The notes beneath the pieces are model-generated. The model was not told the DNA's origin, ran no database searches, and saw nothing but the letters and a program-made list of their open reading frames with translations. This document shows positions 10,888 through 17,000 of a stretch of DNA of 17,277 nt, piece after piece; position 1 is the stretch's first letter, and every line of letters starts with the position of its first letter. Both the position numbers and the translations under genes were made by a program. Source of the stretch: a virus (taxonomy: Duplodnaviria > Heunggongvirae > Uroviricota > Caudoviricetes); the IMG/VR virus record IMGVR_UViG_2529292908_000014, positions 1-17,277 of that record; one strand, given 5' to 3'.

Positions 10888-11111
10888 TTGCAGTTAAACC
10901 TTCTTTTGTGACGTTCTACAGCAGCTTTCATGGCGTTGTGCACGGTTCTTTTAATAATCCGGCGTCCCGCACTGTCATAGAACCGCCACCGGGAAGCCCC
11001 CGGATATTCAGGGAACTCAACCGCCGCGCTACCGTCATTCATCCTGTATTCGTGGCGTTCTCCGGGCGGCTGGTATATTGCTTCGGTAACACTGAGAAGT
11101 TTAAAAGCCAT
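10884..11111 (-). CDS. Hypothetical early protein (75 aa)
   Basis: ATG at 11111 preceded by GGGGAGGGTG. Confidence 0.45.
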   Translation of the reverse strand: MAFKLLSVTEAIYQPPGERHEYRMNDGSAAVEFPEYPGASRWRFYDSAGRRIIKRTVHNAMKAAVERHKRRFNCK

Positions 11112-11823
11112 CGTTACACCCTCCCCAGTGCCAGCGTTTTGTTGCTCTGACCATTAACCCCCTGATGCAGTCTGGCGTTTTTCCCGGCGATAAAACCGGC
11201 TGTAGCGGCAGACTCTGCACCCCGGCACGCTTTAGCGGTGCGCATATCCCCGTCGCGCAGTCCCTTGGTGCTGTGCAGGTTCTTTCTGTAAAGCTCAAGG
11301 CGGCTTTTTCTTCCGGGGAGACGTCATACACCGCAATGACATCACGGGCACCAAAGACCCAGCCTTCGCAGAACTGGTCGCCACGGGCCACCCGCGTGGA
11401 CGGGCCGCAACGTTTGCAGTGTTTATCCTGATATTTCTTGCGCTCTGCCATCATCTGACGGGAAAGCACATCAAACGCGTAGGCCGCGATTTCCGGGCGG
11501 CTGTCAGGACCATAAAAACGAACGTAACGCTTGAGTGAACCAGAAGCCCGGTATTCGCCGGAGATGTAACACTCGACACCGAAGGCTTTACAGACCAGGT
11601 CACACAGGATGTGCATATAACGCGGCGGTGTACTGGCATCACTCGGCGCACCCGCGCTGGCAGCGTCCTGAATGTCGAACAATTCCGCGTCGTTTTCGCT
11701 GATACCATGCTGGCGCATATAAGCCTGGGCTTTTGCAATAGCGTTAGCGGCTTCTTCCGGGCTTGATGTCCCTCTTGCAAGGCGTAACAGCTTTTTAATT
11801 TTGGCGATGTATTTATTTTTCAT
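11101..11823 (-). CDS. DUF2786-like protein with Cys-rich C-terminal region
   Basis: N-terminus MKNKYIAKIKKLLRLARGTSSPEEAANAIAKAQAYMRQHGISENDAEL matches the DUF2786 pattern as I recall it; several Cys pairs downstream (…CDLVC…, …CKRCGPS…FCEGW…); ATG at 11823. Confidence 0.6.
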   Translation of the reverse strand: MKNKYIAKIKKLLRLARGTSSPEEAANAIAKAQAYMRQHGISENDAELFDIQDAASAGAPSDASTPPRYMHILCDLVCKAFGVECYISGEYRASGSLKRYVRFYGPDSRPEIAAYAFDVLSRQMMAERKKYQDKHCKRCGPSTRVARGDQFCEGWVFGARDVIAVYDVSPEEKAALSFTERTCTAPRDCATGICAPLKRAGVQSLPLQPVLSPGKTPDCIRGLMVRATKRWHWGGCNDGF

Positions 11824-12040
11824 GGTCGTCTGAACCTCAGCATCCTGAATTCTGAATTACGCAACTTCCGGCACGGCCTTCAGGAACATGGGGAGTTCGT
11901 TCTGGCTGCGGTACTGAATGAGCATCTGCTGTCGATTGAGAACTGGTCGCAAGACGATTAAAACAAACGATTGTCAGATTAATTTCGCGGGCGAACTTTT
12001 TTTGCTTTGCGATATTCATAAATAAACTCTCTCTGACTCA

Positions 12041-12078
12041 GGCGTAAGCCAGCCCCGGCGGGTTTACGCCTGTTTTAA
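12041..12078 (+). terminator. Plus-strand hairpin plus T-tract (intrinsic terminator-like) in the opposite orientation to all surrounding genes
   Basis: GGCGTAA…(16 nt, partly self-pairing)…TTACGCC followed by TGTTTTAAAT; the minus-strand reading has no U-tract. Confidence 0.35.
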
Positions 12079-12101
12079 ATAACAATTAAAAACAAATTAA
12101 A

Positions 12102-12293
12102 TTAATGCGGTGCTTTCAGTGTTTCGATTTTAACGAAATAAGGCTCGACATTAATTTCAACCACACAACCACATTTAAAATCTCTGGCAGGTGAAACGGT
12201 TTTCACCACACGACCACCACGCAACGCCGGATGTGCAGTGTGCATGAAGCGAGTCCCTACCGGATACTGCTTATTAAAGTTCTTCGCATTCAT
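12102..12293 (-). CDS. Hypothetical early protein (63 aa)
   Basis: ATG at 12291-12293; overlaps the 3' end of the preceding ORF by 20 nt; no motif recognised. Confidence 0.35.
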   Translation of the reverse strand: MNAKNFNKQYPVGTRFMHTAHPALRGGRVVKTVSPARDFKCGCVVEINVEPYFVKIETLKAPH

Positions 12294-12507
12294 GGCGTGG
12301 CCTCCAGCCCTTCAGGTGAGCGTTAGCGCAGAACTCCGCACGATGTTCAGCCCAGATGCGGCGCAGGGTGCTACACGGGCTTTGCGCTGCCTTGCGCCAC
12401 AGTTTTTCTGCCTCATCATAATCGCCGCGTTGTTCTGCTCTGGATGCACCCAGCGAATACGCCGCGCAACGATTTCCGGCTCTGTACTCTTTGATATCCT
12501 GATGCAT
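12274..12507 (-). CDS. Small protein, possibly ANR-family-like regulator (77 aa)
   Basis: ATG at 12505-12507, 1 nt after the upstream TAA; pattern …AEQRGDYDEAEKLWRKAA…WAEHRAEFC… resembles small ANR-type proteins as I recall them (low certainty). Confidence 0.35.
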   Translation of the reverse strand: MHQDIKEYRAGNRCAAYSLGASRAEQRGDYDEAEKLWRKAAQSPCSTLRRIWAEHRAEFCANAHLKGWRPRHECEEL

Positions 12508-12508
12508 G

Positions 12509-13153
12509 TTAAACCCCTGCAATATCAAGCGGGATTGCGCGGTATTCATCAGAATCACCAACGCGCTCATACACACGAATATAGCTCTTGCTGCCAATCA
12601 CCTGGACGGCTTCACCAATCAGCATCATGGCGTTATTCCAGCGTTCGTCCTCAATTTCGAGGCGACGCAGGGCCAGAACGCGCCCTGTGTTAATGTTGCC
12701 TTCCTTGTCCGTGCTGAATGCCTCGCTAATGATGGCTTTAATTTCAGGGCGCGCACCTTCCGTCCAGTCAGCCAGGCAATCATCAATCAGCGACTTCGCG
12801 GTCTGAATGCGTTCATCAAACGCGATACGGTCCTGCATGGCGCGCTGAATCTTGTATCGCCCGTCAAAGCTGTAAAGCGTGATATTGCCTTTTTTGCCGC
12901 CTTTCACAGCGCCGTATTTCTCCGCCGACAGGTCAATAAATGCCTGGATATCACCAAACGCACGCAGTTTCAGTTCCCGCAGTGAGGCGGAGGCAGCAAT
13001 CACCATCTCCACAAGCTCACCGACCAGCTGCTCGCGGTCGCGGTCAATATCTTTGATAAGGCTTTCAGGTGTCATTACGCCACGGGCATCCACCCAGTAA
13101 CCTTCAGGCGCTTGAGTTTTCGTGTATTGCTTAACTTTATTTTCAGTCGTCAT
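12509..13153 (-). CDS. Mu-like early-region protein (214 aa), possibly DUF3164 family; does not resemble Mu Gam as I recall it
   Basis: ATG at 13151-13153 preceded by GAGGT; long clean ORF; family assignment from memory only. Confidence 0.5.
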   Translation of the reverse strand: MTTENKVKQYTKTQAPEGYWVDARGVMTPESLIKDIDRDREQLVGELVEMVIAASASLRELKLRAFGDIQAFIDLSAEKYGAVKGGKKGNITLYSFDGRYKIQRAMQDRIAFDERIQTAKSLIDDCLADWTEGARPEIKAIISEAFSTDKEGNINTGRVLALRRLEIEDERWNNAMMLIGEAVQVIGSKSYIRVYERVGDSDEYRAIPLDIAGV

Positions 13154-14021: not shown

Positions 14022-14040
14022 TCAGTGAATTAACATTTCT
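14022..14040. repeat. 19-bp direct repeat, copy 2 (tcagtgaattaacatttct), covering the last codons and stop of B
   Basis: Exact match to 13650-13668. Confidence 0.8.
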
Positions 14041-14915
14041 GCGAATTTATCTATGGCCTGCACACTGACCGGCGCATCGCTGATATCGCAAATCCGGTAC
14101 ACACCGCGCGCCAGTTTGAACAGGCGGCGGGCATTACCCAGCGAGCGCGCGTAAAGCGCCTCGCTGATTTCCGGTTCTGCTGCTTCCGGCATCAGCCCGG
14201 TGGCTATCTGGTTAAAATCTTCCTGCGCCAGCGTGTCGCCCAGGTTAAGCGCCAGCGCCACGCGGCTGTATAACTGCGCAAATTCACCACGACGCCCCTT
14301 GAGATTAATCAGAAGACGAGGCATACCCGCCAGGACAACCCCGATACCCGCTTTATCATGCAGACGGCGCAGAACCTCCAGTGCGCGATAGGGGAGCAGT
14401 TCAGCTTCGTCCACCATCAGCAGACGACCGGAATCACGCAGTTCGCGCACACAGGCATCAATCAGTTCGTGAATGTTGCCGCGAACCTTTACCCCCAGCT
14501 GGCGGCACAACTCCTCAAGCAGTGTCCTGGCTGTATAGCCCGGGTCAGCCTCAATCAGGACCGCATCCCGGTTTCTGGCGGCGTATTCACGCAGAATCAT
14601 TGTTTTGCCAAGGCCAGCTGCGCCATACAGCACACAGATTTCACATTCCAGGTGAGCGTAGGCCAGCACCTCCAGTCCTTTGGCAGCCATACCAGTGGTC
14701 ACAAACTTTGCTTTAATACGGCGGCTGTTTTCCTTTTCCCGCTCACGGGTCACAAAGGCAGAAATGCGTTCTTCAATATCAGCCATATCGCCCTGATATT
14801 TACCCTGCAAATACTGGTTGATAACGGCGCTGCTACGACCAATTGCACGGGCGACGTGGGTCTGCGTATAGCCGCGACGGGCCATTACGTCATTTAATTG
14901 CGTAATTAAACTCAT
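14022..14915 (-). CDS. B: Transposition ATPase B (MuB-like AAA+ target DNA activator)
   Basis: 297-aa ORF, ATG at 14915 with AAGG upstream. N-terminal HTH-like segment ending …VINQYLQGKYQGD (Mu B has …FINDKYNGD), Walker A GAAGLGKT, Walker B LLMVDEAELL. Follows A as in Mu. Confidence 0.85.
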   Translation of the reverse strand: MSLITQLNDVMARRGYTQTHVARAIGRSSAVINQYLQGKYQGDMADIEERISAFVTREREKENSRRIKAKFVTTGMAAKGLEVLAYAHLECEICVLYGAAGLGKTMILREYAARNRDAVLIEADPGYTARTLLEELCRQLGVKVRGNIHELIDACVRELRDSGRLLMVDEAELLPYRALEVLRRLHDKAGIGVVLAGMPRLLINLKGRRGEFAQLYSRVALALNLGDTLAQEDFNQIATGLMPEAAEPEISEALYARSLGNARRLFKLARGVYRICDISDAPVSVQAIDKFAEMLIH

Positions 14916-14933: not shown

Positions 14934-17000
14934 TTAACGGTTGTTTGTGCCGTTTTTCTTTAAATTGCGCTCGCGTTCAGATGCGAATAAATAAAGTTCT
15001 TCTTTTTCCTTTTTCTCCGGGCGCTCCAGACCAAATCCAAAATTAAACTCAGATTTCTGCGTAATAGCCGGGGTAAGCTCGCGTTTCGCCTCTTCGATTT
15101 TCTGCGTGGCCCGTGCAATACGGCCCCTGACGCGTTTCTCCAGTTTTTGCTCGATAACTGGTTTAGCGAAGGCATCAACCTTATTGCCGTTCCAGATGGC
15201 ATCGCAGATATAAGAGCCATCAGCCCGCCGGACAATGACACTGTTTGCATCATGAATATCGTAACTGACCCTGACTTCATTCCCGTGCTCTGCGGCCAGC
15301 TCATATGAGTAATAAATATTGTTGAATAACTGAATTTCCCCGCGAAATGTTTTGCGCGTCACCTCCGGTCTGAACATTTCATGCAGTTCTTCCGGCGACA
15401 GGAAATCAATTTCAACATTCTGCTCTTTTATCAGTTTCCGGCGATACGCTGCCGGGCTGTAATATTCGCCATCCTCTTTGCGGGGAAGGCTGCTGTGTGG
15501 CCGGTTGTTATAGCGTCTGACCTCCAGCTCTATGGCCGCCATCAGTTGCTCAAAGGTGGGGATTTCATCCCTCGCCTTAACCTGCCGTTTTGTCAGCTCT
15601 TTCCCTTTGTGGGTGGCCTTAATGGCTGACTGCATAATCCGTTGCTGCATCATTACGGTTTCCTTGTCTGCTCCCTTTGAGCAGTACGTCCGGAAACTCA
15701 GGGCCACATCCCGGGGAATTTCCTTGTTAAGCCTTTCAATCACCCCGCGCCCCTGTGGGTTACCTGGTATCCCCGTGTGATGTTCCACACCCAGCCGGGG
15801 GAGAACCCCGGTAATATCGGCATCAAGCACCCGGTTTTTTTCGCCGCCCCCGTTATCGGAGTAATAAATCAGCGGTATCCCGTGCTGTGCCATGCCGTAA
15901 CGCAACGCATCAGCAACGGCTATCACGTTTTCCGACAGGGACAGTGACCAGCCCACAACAAAGCGCTGCCCCGCATCCATAACCAGCGTCACTTCTGGCC
16001 GGAAAATATTGCCGGTCAGGGGGTTAAACGCGGTCATTTTCATACAGTGACCATCCCCGACCCATACCGCATTAACCGGTAATGTGCTCCAGTCGCGCCG
16101 CACAAAGGGATTGAGCGAACGCCAGGCTGAACCGGTGGAGCGGAAACGCTCTTTAACAATCACCGGGACGCTGCTTAACACCCGTCTGACTGCGTGAACT
16201 GAGGGCAGTGCCGCCAGCATTCCCGCATCGTTCGCGTGCTTCTCATGCCACCAGGCTGAAAACTCGCGATACGCATATTCAACGGTCGGGCGCTTCCATG
16301 AGCGATAGAACATAAAGAAATCGCTCAACCACCAGACCTGCTCCCACGGTGTTCCCTTATGATGACCGGGAGCCAGTAACGCCAGTAACTGATTGGCATC
16401 ACCGCGCGCCATCACCCAGCTGGAGTACCAGCTATCCAGGCTGCCGGTGCTGACACCGGTTCGCTTTCCCTGACGTGCATTTGCAGTATTCGCTGCTTCG
16501 ATAATGCGGTCAGGTAACGCCCCCATGCGCACACCATCAACGATGTGCTTTAACGCGGCCTTCCTGGTCATTCTGGCGTATTCACGCAGTTTATGCACTT
16601 CAGTAGCCAGCAATATCCGCGCATCAGCAATGGCCTTTTGCTTGTCGGTCAGTGCCTGGACTTCGCGTAATGCCAGTTCCGGGCATTTGACCATCACTTC
16701 CAGTTCATCGCGAACAGCAACGTTTTTAACTGCCTTCTGCTCAACCACAACGGGCAGTTGTGCATCTTCCAGAACCTGCTGGGCTAGACGTTGACGTAAA
16801 GCCTTCTGCGTTTCAGTGGGAAGGCTATGAATATGATATTCAACACCCCCACCTTTCATTTCTCTAACTCTACTCGCCCACTTATCTCGCTTCGCTTTTA
16901 CCGCAATCCCTACTCGTGTTGATGGAATTCCCGGCAAAGATAGATCTGCTAATTCTTGGGCCGAATAGTGCGTTTTTACACAGTCATCACTCATAACCAC
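14934..17000 (-). CDS. A: Mu-type DDE transposase A
   Basis: 688-aa ORF. N-terminus …AQELADLSLPGIPSTRVGIAVKAKRDKWASRVREMKGGGVEYHIHSLPTETQKAL parallels the MuA enhancer-binding domain as I recall it. Size and position between ner and B. Likely start at ATG 16992-16994 (track start 17000 is GTG). Confidence 0.9.
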   Translation of the reverse strand: MVMSDDCVKTHYSAQELADLSLPGIPSTRVGIAVKAKRDKWASRVREMKGGGVEYHIHSLPTETQKALRQRLAQQVLEDAQLPVVVEQKAVKNVAVRDELEVMVKCPELALREVQALTDKQKAIADARILLATEVHKLREYARMTRKAALKHIVDGVRMGALPDRIIEAANTANARQGKRTGVSTGSLDSWYSSWVMARGDANQLLALLAPGHHKGTPWEQVWWLSDFFMFYRSWKRPTVEYAYREFSAWWHEKHANDAGMLAALPSVHAVRRVLSSVPVIVKERFRSTGSAWRSLNPFVRRDWSTLPVNAVWVGDGHCMKMTAFNPLTGNIFRPEVTLVMDAGQRFVVGWSLSLSENVIAVADALRYGMAQHGIPLIYYSDNGGGEKNRVLDADITGVLPRLGVEHHTGIPGNPQGRGVIERLNKEIPRDVALSFRTYCSKGADKETVMMQQRIMQSAIKATHKGKELTKRQVKARDEIPTFEQLMAAIELEVRRYNNRPHSSLPRKEDGEYYSPAAYRRKLIKEQNVEIDFLSPEELHEMFRPEVTRKTFRGEIQLFNNIYYSYELAAEHGNEVRVSYDIHDANSVIVRRADGSYICDAIWNGNKVDAFAKPVIEQKLEKRVRGRIARATQKIEEAKRELTPAITQKSEFNFGFGLERPEKKEKEELYLFASERERNLKKNGTNNR

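What the first reader, a model, noticed from the sequence alone, without database searches (positions are those of the whole stretch)
11824..12101. AT-rich 278-bp gap with an antisense mini-ORF and terminator inside the early operon
All neighbouring genes are minus-strand and tightly packed, yet this gap carries a plus-strand hairpin followed by TGTTTTAAAT (12041-12078) that would terminate only plus-strand transcripts. Sixteen nt upstream ends a 35-codon plus-strand ORF (ATG 11918 to TAA 12023-12025; MSICCRLRTGRKTIKTNDCQINFAGELFLLCDIHK). This is the layout of an antisense small RNA or small-protein gene (type I toxin-antitoxin-like or oop-like regulator), and the gap may also hold an internal promoter for the DUF2786 operon. 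No convincing -35/-10 or Shine-Dalgarno sequence was found by eye, so the gene call is speculative.
Basis: partly seen in the sequence, partly recalled or inferred. Interest (0 to 1): 0.5.

Follow-up and report, generated by a model that had tools for sequence, protein, structure and literature searches.

The report
Gene relic beside a conserved hairpin
This "gap" in a Mu-like E. coli prophage is not a small-RNA or toxin gene: it holds the beheaded remains of a backward-facing small gene, a short forward ORF, and a 30-base hairpin that sits beside the same small gene in over 100 related phages, where accessory genes are swapped in and out.

Summary
The coordinates, the hairpin and the 35-codon ORF are all real, but the interpretation mostly fails. 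The 35-codon plus-strand ORF has no Shine-Dalgarno sequence (SD), no promoter and no hydrophobic segment. It carries a premature stop in 5 of 18 close relatives.

First, 11830-11961 (+) is the last 43 codons of a real 72-77-aa gene family. That family sits reverse-oriented in this same slot in five diverged Mu-like lineages. Here a 169-bp deletion removed its promoter, ribosome-binding site and first 29 codons. Second, a 60-codon minus-strand ORF (11837-12019) starts at an SD just after the hairpin.

The hairpin (12039-12072) does not belong to the plus-strand gene. It follows the 63-aa phrog_5591 gene in 39 of 41 protein-seeded loci and in 113 of 123 pattern hits, with structure-preserving changes. 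Extra copies separate stacked accessory genes. Its plus-strand U-tail is good in this clade but hardly better than chance across the family.

Verdict: a decayed reverse "moron" (self-contained inserted gene) plus an uncharacterised conserved intercistronic hairpin at a cassette-exchange slot. The relic is ordinary. The hairpin is moderately interesting, and its mechanism is unresolved.

The parts
12102..12293 (-). 63-aa early gene (phrog_5591). It is the constant upstream neighbour of the hairpin.
   Evidence: PHROG hit at 4.7e-40. A homolog lies directly upstream of the hairpin in 113 of 123 pattern hits, at 30-100% identity. The AF2 model is an SH3/Tudor-like barrel with only one confident model and no significant PDB match.
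12073..12101 (-). AT-rich spacer between the stop codon of the 63-aa gene and the hairpin. On the plus strand it is the U/A-rich tail TGTTTTAAATAACAATT...
   Evidence: A TTTAAAnAT-type motif is conserved just before the hairpin in sense orientation. The plus-strand tail score is -3.69 here. The family median is -2.62, against -2.43 for composition-matched random sequence.
12039..12072 (.). Conserved GC hairpin. On the sense (minus) strand it reads CA-GGCGTAAACCCGCCGGGGCTGGCTTACGCC-TG.
   Evidence: Fold energies are. It is a single copy in the window and scores 61.4 bits with the covariance model. It is present in 39 of 41 distinct protein-seeded loci across Enterobacterales and in Klebsiella and 'Pseudomonas' phages. 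Covariation score is 0.124 against 0.068 in shuffles, reached by 1 of 500.
12020..12038 (-). Ribosome-binding region of the next minus-strand cistron: TGAGTCAGAGAGAGTTTATTT before the ATG, counted from the hairpin core.
   Evidence: The same layout of hairpin, about 8 nt, SD, about 7 nt, ATG precedes whatever gene follows. The start codon lies 14-26 nt after the hairpin, most often 18-22.
11837..12019 (-). 60-codon ORF on the early-operon strand. Its first ~25 codons look genuinely coding. The rest reads antisense through the relic below.
   Evidence: It is open in 18 of 18 relatives. The N-terminal motif xREIxxTIxxFxRL is shared with four diverged lineages and with the N-terminus of a 188-aa protein, with synonymous codon changes. 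The long open tail is explained by the plus-strand protein sequence: synonymous resampling gives P = 0.63-0.82 in 4 of 5 lineages. Homologs are found only in E. coli.
11830..11961 (+). 5'-truncated relic (43 codons plus stop) of a reverse-oriented 72-77-aa gene.
   Evidence: The full gene is present in E2348/69. The family was found by HMMER: P0010 at 59% identity, and P0012, P0013 and P0015 at 35-37%. All sit in the same slot and orientation. There is no ATG, GTG or TTG in this frame in the window.
11822..11829 (.). Deletion junction ATGGTCGT.
   Evidence: E2348/69 has 169 extra bases here, flanked by ATGGTTGT and ATGGCTGT. They carry the TGTCATAAT box, the AGGAG ribosome-binding site and codons 1-29.
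11918..12025 (+). It is judged not to be a gene.
   Evidence: It has a premature TGA in 5 of 18 relatives, no SD or promoter, and is not hydrophobic.
11101..11823 (-). DUF2786/DUF7168 early gene, the downstream border of the variable slot.
   Evidence: Pfam hits at 9.8e-13 and 2.5e-27.

Best explanation
The window is the early region of a Mu-like transposable prophage of E. coli. Region 11824-12101 is a scarred hypervariable accessory-gene slot between the 63-aa phrog_5591 gene and the DUF2786 gene.

It contains three things:
1. A conserved intercistronic module. It consists of an AT-rich spacer, a 30-nt GC hairpin and the ribosome-binding site of the next cistron.
2. A 60-codon early-strand ORF that starts at that ribosome-binding site. 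Its first ~25 codons are probably translated.
3. The 3' 43 codons of a convergent, reverse-oriented 72-77-aa gene, overlapping the ORF in antisense. Relatives have this gene intact, with its own extended -10 box and SD.

In this window a 169-bp deletion between 8-bp near-repeats removed the reverse gene's promoter, ribosome-binding site and N-terminus, so it is dead. In intact relatives the hairpin lies 70-80 nt past that gene's stop codon. With its U/A-rich tail it probably ends that transcript. In this window that activity is orphaned.

The hairpin persists for a role independent of the reverse gene. My inference is that it acts in the early-operon transcript just upstream of the next cistron's ribosome-binding site, in processing, stability or a factor-binding role. 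It also serves as the homology patch at which accessory genes are gained, lost and stacked.

Shown: the anatomy, the conservation, the truncation and the cassette duplications. Inferred: promoter and terminator activity, translation of the 60-codon ORF, and the hairpin's molecular role.
For: Prophage identity: MuA/MuB/DUF3164/DUF2786 hits and 99.7% identity to an E. coli O166:H15 prophage.

Reverse gene is real:
- HMMER found full-length 75-77-aa homologs at 35-59% identity with the motif AAAIxANKxAW.
- All lie reverse-oriented between the phrog_5591/DUF3164 genes and DUF2786.
- TGYCATAAT and AGGAG are conserved upstream.

Truncation:
- The alignment shows a 169-bp gap in the window.
- There is no start codon in that frame.
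- Among E. coli complete genomes, 8 have the full gene, 35 the truncated form and 16 the hairpin only.

Hairpin:
- Present in 39 of 41 protein-seeded loci from at least 7 genera.
- 113 of 123 pattern hits have a 63-aa homolog just upstream, mostly only 50-60% identical.
- Substitutions preserve the structure.
- The distance to the next start codon is constant.

Cassette role: two or three copies bracket different inserted genes in M8, TUM1881, STEC316, L038 and L126.
Against: - There are no expression data, so promoter, terminator and translation claims are inferences.
- The simple promoter and terminator scans called nothing in E2348/69 or L038.
- The strand on which the hairpin works is unresolved. 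The plus-strand RNA is more stable in 42 of 44 variants, mainly through one conserved G.U pair. Other wobble pairs fall on either strand about equally: 8 cells on the sense strand against 5 on the antisense.
- The family-wide plus-strand tail is barely better than AT-rich random sequence.
- Within E. coli, substitutions in the overlap show no clear codon-position bias for either frame (5:7:4).
- The deletion junction (ATGGTCGT) is not an exact product of the two repeats.
Confidence: 0.75

Rival explanations
1. The gap encodes an antisense small RNA or a 35-aa peptide (type I toxin-antitoxin-like or oop-like) that ends at the plus-strand terminator.
For: The hairpin plus TGTTTTAAAT is a credible plus-strand intrinsic terminator (tail score -3.69). 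The ORF exists.
Against: The ORF has a premature stop in 5 of 18 relatives. There is no SD and no -10-like element in 640 nt upstream. The peptide is not hydrophobic. Rfam gives no hit. The hairpin is explained by family-wide conservation independent of any plus-strand gene.
Confidence: 0.03
2. The hairpin is foremost a plus-strand (antisense) intrinsic terminator. It insulates the core early genes (A, B, kil, DUF3164, the ANR gene and the 63-aa gene) from antisense transcription that arises in the variable accessory slot, such as from reverse-oriented morons.
For: The plus-strand fold is more stable in 42 of 44 variants. A G.U pair is conserved on that strand. The tail passes -2.5 in 66% of instances, against 19% on the sense strand. 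The hairpin lies directly downstream of the reverse gene wherever that gene exists.
Against: Composition-matched random tails pass the same threshold in 47% of cases. Many lineages have AAUAUUUAAA-type tails. Second copies have ATATACAAAT. Only about 10 of 123 loci have the reverse gene. Terminators rarely keep their sequence this constant while the neighbouring protein falls to 50% identity.
Confidence: 0.25
3. The hairpin is a sequence-specific RNA site in the early mRNA, bound by a phage or host factor. The factor could be the 63-aa protein always encoded just upstream, in a layout like Mu com/mom. It would control translation, processing or stability of the accessory cistron that follows.
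For: The outer stem sequence is near-invariant and the sense-strand loop is G-rich, while the adjacent protein diverges to 30-60% identity. The spacing to the next SD and ATG is constant whatever gene follows. The hairpin is inseparably linked to phrog_5591. The 63-aa model is a small beta-barrel of a class that includes nucleic-acid binders.
Against: The hairpin does not sequester the SD. The structure model is weak, with one confident model of five and no significant fold hit. The sense strand carries a conserved A/C mismatch. No experimental data exist.
Confidence: 0.3
4. The module has no expression role. It is kept because it is the recombination joint for cassette exchange (PeSL-like or integron-like), or it is a DNA-level palindromic protein site.
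For: Duplicated modules bracket different genes, and the duplications can include the 3' end of the 63-aa gene. Wobble pairs are split between the strands, as expected for a DNA palindrome.
Against: It is confined to one slot, with one copy per genome segment except in arrays. Inner-stem changes preserve pairing, which a half-site operator would not require. No site-specific recombinase is linked to it.
Confidence: 0.2

Closest known systems
Phage 'moron': an autonomous gene with its own promoter and terminator inserted between phage genes. The concept comes from HK97/HK022 comparative genomics (my own knowledge).
   Same: The 72-77-aa reverse gene sits between two early genes. It has a conserved extended -10-like box and SD, and a hairpin plus U/A tail lies downstream.
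   Different: It is convergent with, and embedded in, the early operon. It holds a conserved position in five diverged lineages rather than being sporadic. In this window it is truncated and non-functional.
Rho-independent (intrinsic) terminator
   Same: On the plus strand there is a GC-rich 12-14-bp stem and a 4-nt loop, followed by TGTTTTAAAT.
   Different: Its sequence, and not only its structure, is conserved. The U-tract is weak or absent in many family members and in second copies. It is present where there is nothing to terminate.
PeSL cassettes of T4-type phages: promoter-early stem-loops that mediate modular shuffling (PMC2839356, PMC4122927)
   Same: A short conserved stem-loop module flanks variable non-essential ORFs. 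Repeated copies bracket inserted or replaced genes.
   Different: No sigma-70 promoter was detected in the module. It is confined to a single slot rather than dispersed. The phage group is different (Mu-like). Mini-circles were not examined.
Lambda oop RNA and type I toxin-antitoxin loci
   Same: A short plus-strand unit antisense to an operon, ending at a hairpin.
   Different: There is no promoter, no conserved small ORF and no hydrophobic peptide. The ancestral plus-strand product is a soluble-looking 72-aa protein.
Mu com/mom translational activation: a 62-aa Com protein binds a hairpin just upstream of mom (my own knowledge)
   Same: A ~60-aa protein gene is followed directly by a conserved hairpin about 20 nt upstream of the next start codon.
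   Different: There is no sequence similarity to Com. The hairpin does not occlude the SD. Binding is untested.
REP/BIME-type and other intercistronic mRNA-stabilising stem-loops, such as malE-malF (my own knowledge)
   Same: A transcribed GC-rich palindrome lies between cistrons of one operon.
   Different: There is no similarity to the REP consensus. It is single-site and phage-lineage-specific.

Membership tests
Type I toxin-antitoxin | Small hydrophobic (membrane-spanning) toxin peptide | tested here: not met
   The 35-aa peptide has GRAVY -0.02, a best 15-aa window hydropathy of 1.23 and 9 charged residues.
Type I toxin-antitoxin | Toxin ORF conserved among relatives | tested here: not met
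   A TGA occurs at codon 6 in 5 of 18 relatives.
Antisense sRNA (oop-like) | Own promoter upstream of the terminator on the same strand | tested here: not met
   The sigma-70 scan found no hit. There is no -10-like hexamer on the plus strand in 11400-12040. The ancestral promoter-like box lies in the deleted 169 bp.
Antisense sRNA (oop-like) | Detectable discrete transcript | not testable with these tools
   No expression data are available.
Known Rfam RNA family | Score at or above the family gathering threshold | tested here: not met
   The best hit is Lnt at 26 bits against 55, E = 0.48.
Intrinsic terminator (plus strand) | Stable GC-rich stem-loop | tested here: met
   -24.3 kcal/mol, z = -4.7.
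Intrinsic terminator (plus strand) | U-tract immediately 3' of the stem, conserved across the family | tested here: inconclusive
   The window tail scores -3.69. In the family, 66% of tails pass -2.5, against 47% of composition-matched random sequences. The scoring scheme was re-implemented from memory.
Moron (reverse 72-77-aa gene) | Intact ORF with ribosome-binding site and promoter | tested here: not met
   This is met in E2348/69, L038, L090, L091 and L094. In this window the first 29 codons, the ribosome-binding site and the promoter-like box are deleted.
PeSL-like shuffling cassette | Conserved stem-loop repeats flanking variable ORFs | tested here: met
   M8, TUM1881, STEC316, L038 and L126 carry two or three copies around different genes.
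PeSL-like shuffling cassette | Strong sigma-70 early promoter within the module | tested here: not met
   No promoter-like site was found in or next to the module.
PeSL-like shuffling cassette | Dispersed at many sites in the hyperplastic regions | tested here: not met
   The covariance-model search of 652 kb found one site per locus, plus local arrays only.
Integron attC | Linked integron integrase and R'/R'' core sites (GTTRRRY) | tested here: not met
   There is no such core in the hairpin by direct reading. No tyrosine recombinase lies in the neighbourhood, where the annotated genes are MuA, MuB and accessory genes.
Mu-like transposable prophage early operon | MuA-type transposase followed by a MuB-type AAA+ ATPase on one strand, with Mor and GemA downstream | tested here: met
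   Pfam hits Mu-transpos_C, HTH_Tnp_Mu_1, rve and AAA_22/TniB. RefSeq annotates Mor and GemA.

The most novel reading that the evidence does not exclude
The 30-nt hairpin module would be an undescribed, sequence-specific cis element of a large lineage of Mu-like phages. A phage factor, possibly the small beta-barrel 63-aa protein always encoded just upstream, would recognise it to gate expression of the accessory early genes. The module would also be the joint of an integron-like or PeSL-like cassette array. One ancient cassette in that array would be a convergent, antisense-overlapping gene pair: the 72-77-aa reverse gene and a 60-81-codon early-strand ORF. That pair would work as a lysogeny/induction switch through transcriptional interference.
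Probability: 0.2. Interest if true: 0.65.

Novelty: new variant of a known kind. Interest (0 to 1): 0.35.

Why it matters
For annotation, a tempting "antisense mini-gene plus terminator" turns out to be a gene relic beside a lineage-wide hairpin. Neither the 35-codon ORF nor an sRNA should be annotated here.

For phage biology, three points stand out:
- The hairpin stays near-invariant in over 100 Mu-like phage contigs while the adjacent protein falls to about 50% identity.
- It brackets stacked accessory genes.
- It is absent from Rfam.

Together these mark a defined, testable hotspot for accessory-gene exchange, and possibly for accessory-gene regulation, in transposable phages. The reverse-oriented 72-77-aa gene is conserved inside an otherwise unidirectional early operon. 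It is a candidate lysogeny-expressed function.

Tried and rejected
- Near-identity search of the phage collection found no match. A protein-mode search found only three distant phages.
- Rfam gave only sub-threshold chance hits.
- The first genome-contig scan with a single protein found nothing. The alignment-based repeat worked.
- Codon-position counts within E. coli were 5:7:4, too few and too even to pick a frame.
- I tested whether the long antisense ORF is maintained by selection. Codon permutation suggested it is (combined P = 0.005). Synonymous resampling shows that the plus-strand protein sequence explains it (P = 0.63-0.82 in 4 of 5 lineages, combined 0.52). I therefore rejected the ORF's openness as evidence (the first attempt timed out).
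- P0008 and P0009, apparent variants of the 60-aa ORF, are frameshift artefacts of a poor assembly.
- Structure prediction and fold search of the 63-aa protein gave one confident model of five and SH3/Tudor-like matches with E >= 0.19. This is not informative about RNA binding.
- Strand assignment from G.U versus A.C pairs was ambiguous.
- Four literature searches found nothing on this hairpin or gene set. One further search returned only unrelated papers.
- An internal promoter in the gap was not found.
- A programmed-frameshift reading of TTTAAAC plus the hairpin was rejected. The site lies after the stop codon and the spacer is only 2 nt.

Full report
**Context.** The window is the left part of a Mu-like transposable prophage. 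On the minus strand lie a MuA-type transposase (14934-17000), a MuB-type AAA+ ATPase (14022-14915), DUF3164 (12509-13153), an ANR-family gene, a 63-aa gene (12102-12293, phrog_5591) and a DUF2786/DUF7168 gene (11101-11823). The region is 99.7% identical to a prophage of E. coli O166:H15. Related DNA occurs in 58-59 of 5,426 complete E. coli genomes. There is no near-identical match in the phage collection.

**Checking the observation.**
- The hairpin is real and unlikely by chance. The plus-strand RNA of 12030-12085 folds at -24.3 kcal/mol (z = -4.7, 0 of 200 shuffles as good). The minus-strand RNA folds at -19.2 (z = -2.0). It occurs once in the window.
- The 35-codon ORF 11918-12025 exists.
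- The "gap" is not empty. A 60-codon minus-strand ORF (11837-12019) begins at an SD and ATG 19 nt after the extended stem, 21 nt after its core. PGAP calls this ORF in some relatives but not in others.

- In 18 homologous sequences (14 distinct), the 35-codon ORF has a TGA at codon 6 in five.
- It has no SD.
- There is no sigma-70-like site, nor any -10-like hexamer, on the plus strand from 11400 to 12040.
- The peptide is not hydrophobic.
- Rfam gives nothing above threshold.
- The type I toxin and oop-like readings are therefore not supported.

**What the plus strand really holds.**
- E2348/69 and seven other genomes carry 169 extra bases immediately after the DUF2786 start codon.
- With these bases, the plus strand encodes a 72-aa protein preceded by AGGAG and a TGTCATAAT box.
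- HMMER against 1.8 billion representative proteins found full-length 75-77-aa relatives at 59%, 37%, 35% and 37% identity, sharing AAAIxANKxAW.
- Every one of them lies reverse-oriented in the same slot of another Mu-like prophage, next to DUF2786.
- The TGYCATAAT and AGGAG elements are conserved between the two lineages compared.
- So this is a genuine, positionally conserved reverse gene.
- The window retains only its last 43 codons (11830-11961), with no ATG, GTG or TTG in frame.
- The deletion lies between ATGGTTGT and ATGGCTGT. I infer that it is a deletion rather than an insertion because the diverged homologs are full length.
- Among E. coli complete genomes, 8 have the full gene, 35 have this truncation and 16 have only the hairpin.

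**The minus-strand ORF.**
- In all five lineages with the reverse gene, an ORF of 60-81 codons starts after the hairpin and runs antisense into the 3' half of the reverse gene.
- Its first ~25 residues share xREIxxTIxx[FYH]x[RQ]L with one another and with the N-terminus of a 188-aa protein. The L038 pair aligns at E = 1e-6, and codons differ synonymously, including Ser TCT against AGT. That part looks translated.
- The long open tail is not evidence of selection. Synonymous re-coding of the reverse protein leaves the antisense frame open in 63-82% of trials in four of five lineages.
- Within E. coli the overlap shows no codon-position bias (5:7:4).
- I treat 11837-12019 as a probable small early ORF with an unconstrained tail.

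**The hairpin.**
- Protein-seeded retrieval of phrog_5591 neighbourhoods from viral, genome and metagenome collections gave 41 distinct downstream sequences. Thirty-nine have the hairpin 25-45 nt after the stop codon. They come from Kluyvera, Buttiauxella, Trabulsiella, Intestinirhabdus, Pantoea, Edwardsiella, Klebsiella phage ST405-OXA48phi1.1 and "Pseudomonas" phage VW-6B.
- A pattern scan found at least 119 viral contigs. In 113 of 123 hits a 63-aa homolog lies directly upstream, mostly only 50-60% identical. The hairpin is therefore far better conserved than its neighbouring protein.
- Variants keep the fold. An outer A-U pair becomes G-C, and the inner stem changes from GC/GC to GUC/GAC or to CCGCC/GGUGG. 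The covariation score is 0.124 against 0.068 in shuffles (1 of 500).
- The flanks are also conserved: TTTAAAnAT before the hairpin, WRAATC and an SD after it, and a start codon 14-26 nt downstream.
- The covariance model finds one copy per locus, except where accessory genes are stacked. M8, TUM1881, STEC316, L038 and L126 have two or three copies bracketing different genes. The duplication sometimes includes the 3' end of the 63-aa gene.

**Which strand?**
- The plus-strand RNA is more stable in 42 of 44 variants. This is largely due to one conserved G.U pair, which is an A/C mismatch on the sense strand.
- Other wobble pairs split 8 cells (sense strand) to 5 (antisense).
- The plus-strand tail is good here (-3.69). 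Across the family it passes -2.5 in 66% of instances, against 47% for composition-matched random tails.
- Only about 10 of 123 hairpin loci have the reverse gene.
- A terminator role for the reverse gene is therefore plausible where that gene exists, but it cannot be the reason for family-wide conservation.
- The 63-aa protein models as an SH3/Tudor-like barrel, with weak confidence and no significant fold match.

**Comparison with known systems.**
- The reverse gene behaves like a moron, but it is dead here.
- The hairpin module resembles PeSL shuffling cassettes of T4-type phages (PMC2839356). It lacks a promoter and is confined to one slot.
- It resembles intercistronic stabiliser hairpins and the Mu com/mom layout by position only.

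**Verdict.** The gene relic is ordinary. The conserved hairpin module is an uncharacterised cis element of moderate interest.

Noticed in passing
window 12274-12507 (-): RefSeq annotates an ANR-family (AraC negative regulator) gene inside the Mu-like early operon. It overlaps the start of the 63-aa gene by 20 nt. The mechanical ORF list extends it to a TTG at 12597.
   Followed up: no
L004 1713-1931 (+); L038 2892-3122; L090, L091 and L094 from 3501 to about 3730: A 72-77-aa protein family of unknown function has no Pfam or PHROG hit. It is conserved in reverse orientation at one fixed position of the early operon in five diverged Mu-like lineages, with a conserved TGYCATAAT box. It may be a lysogeny-expressed gene.
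   Followed up: partly
L126 (reverse complement) about 11765-12724: Three copies of the hairpin module separate three unrelated small genes of 129, 125 and 88 aa. This is an integron-like array downstream of the 63-aa gene.
   Followed up: partly
L038 3230-3296: The duplicated module after the 188-aa gene includes a relic of the last ~30 nt of the 63-aa gene (TTAATGCGGTGATTTCAGTGTTTCGAC). This shows that cassettes were stacked by duplication or recombination of the whole gene-end plus hairpin unit.
   Followed up: partly
L081 about 1680-1740: In one divergent 63-aa homolog (62% identity) the usual hairpin is replaced by an unrelated GC palindrome, CAGCGCAGGACTGCCTGCGCTG.
   Followed up: no
L043 about 890-1020: After the AT-rich spacer the sequence switches to repeated CTTGAAAT motifs instead of the hairpin. 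This may be the end of another mobile element or a contig chimera.
   Followed up: no
L089 (Pseudomonas phage VW-6B, MF975721.1) 1715-1750: A phage recorded as infecting Pseudomonas fluorescens carries the same hairpin and a 56% identical 63-aa gene. This is unexpected for an otherwise enterobacterial element.
   Followed up: no
P0003 (E. coli 2.3916): In some strains the truncated reverse-gene relic is fused to an upstream ATG lying antisense within DUF2786. This gives an annotated 64-aa ORF. In this window a TAA at 11785-11787 prevents that.
   Followed up: no
L030 (GCA_036681295.1): The assembly has DUF3164, DUF2786 and the 60-aa ORF all split by frameshifts. It is probably error-prone sequence, so its variant proteins (P0009) are not informative.
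   Followed up: partly
window 11982-12003 (+): A small TTCGCGGGCGAA palindrome is followed by a run of 7 T (8 T in relatives), just past the reverse gene's stop codon. It lies inside the conserved N-terminal coding part of the 60-codon ORF and is not conserved in L038.
   Followed up: no
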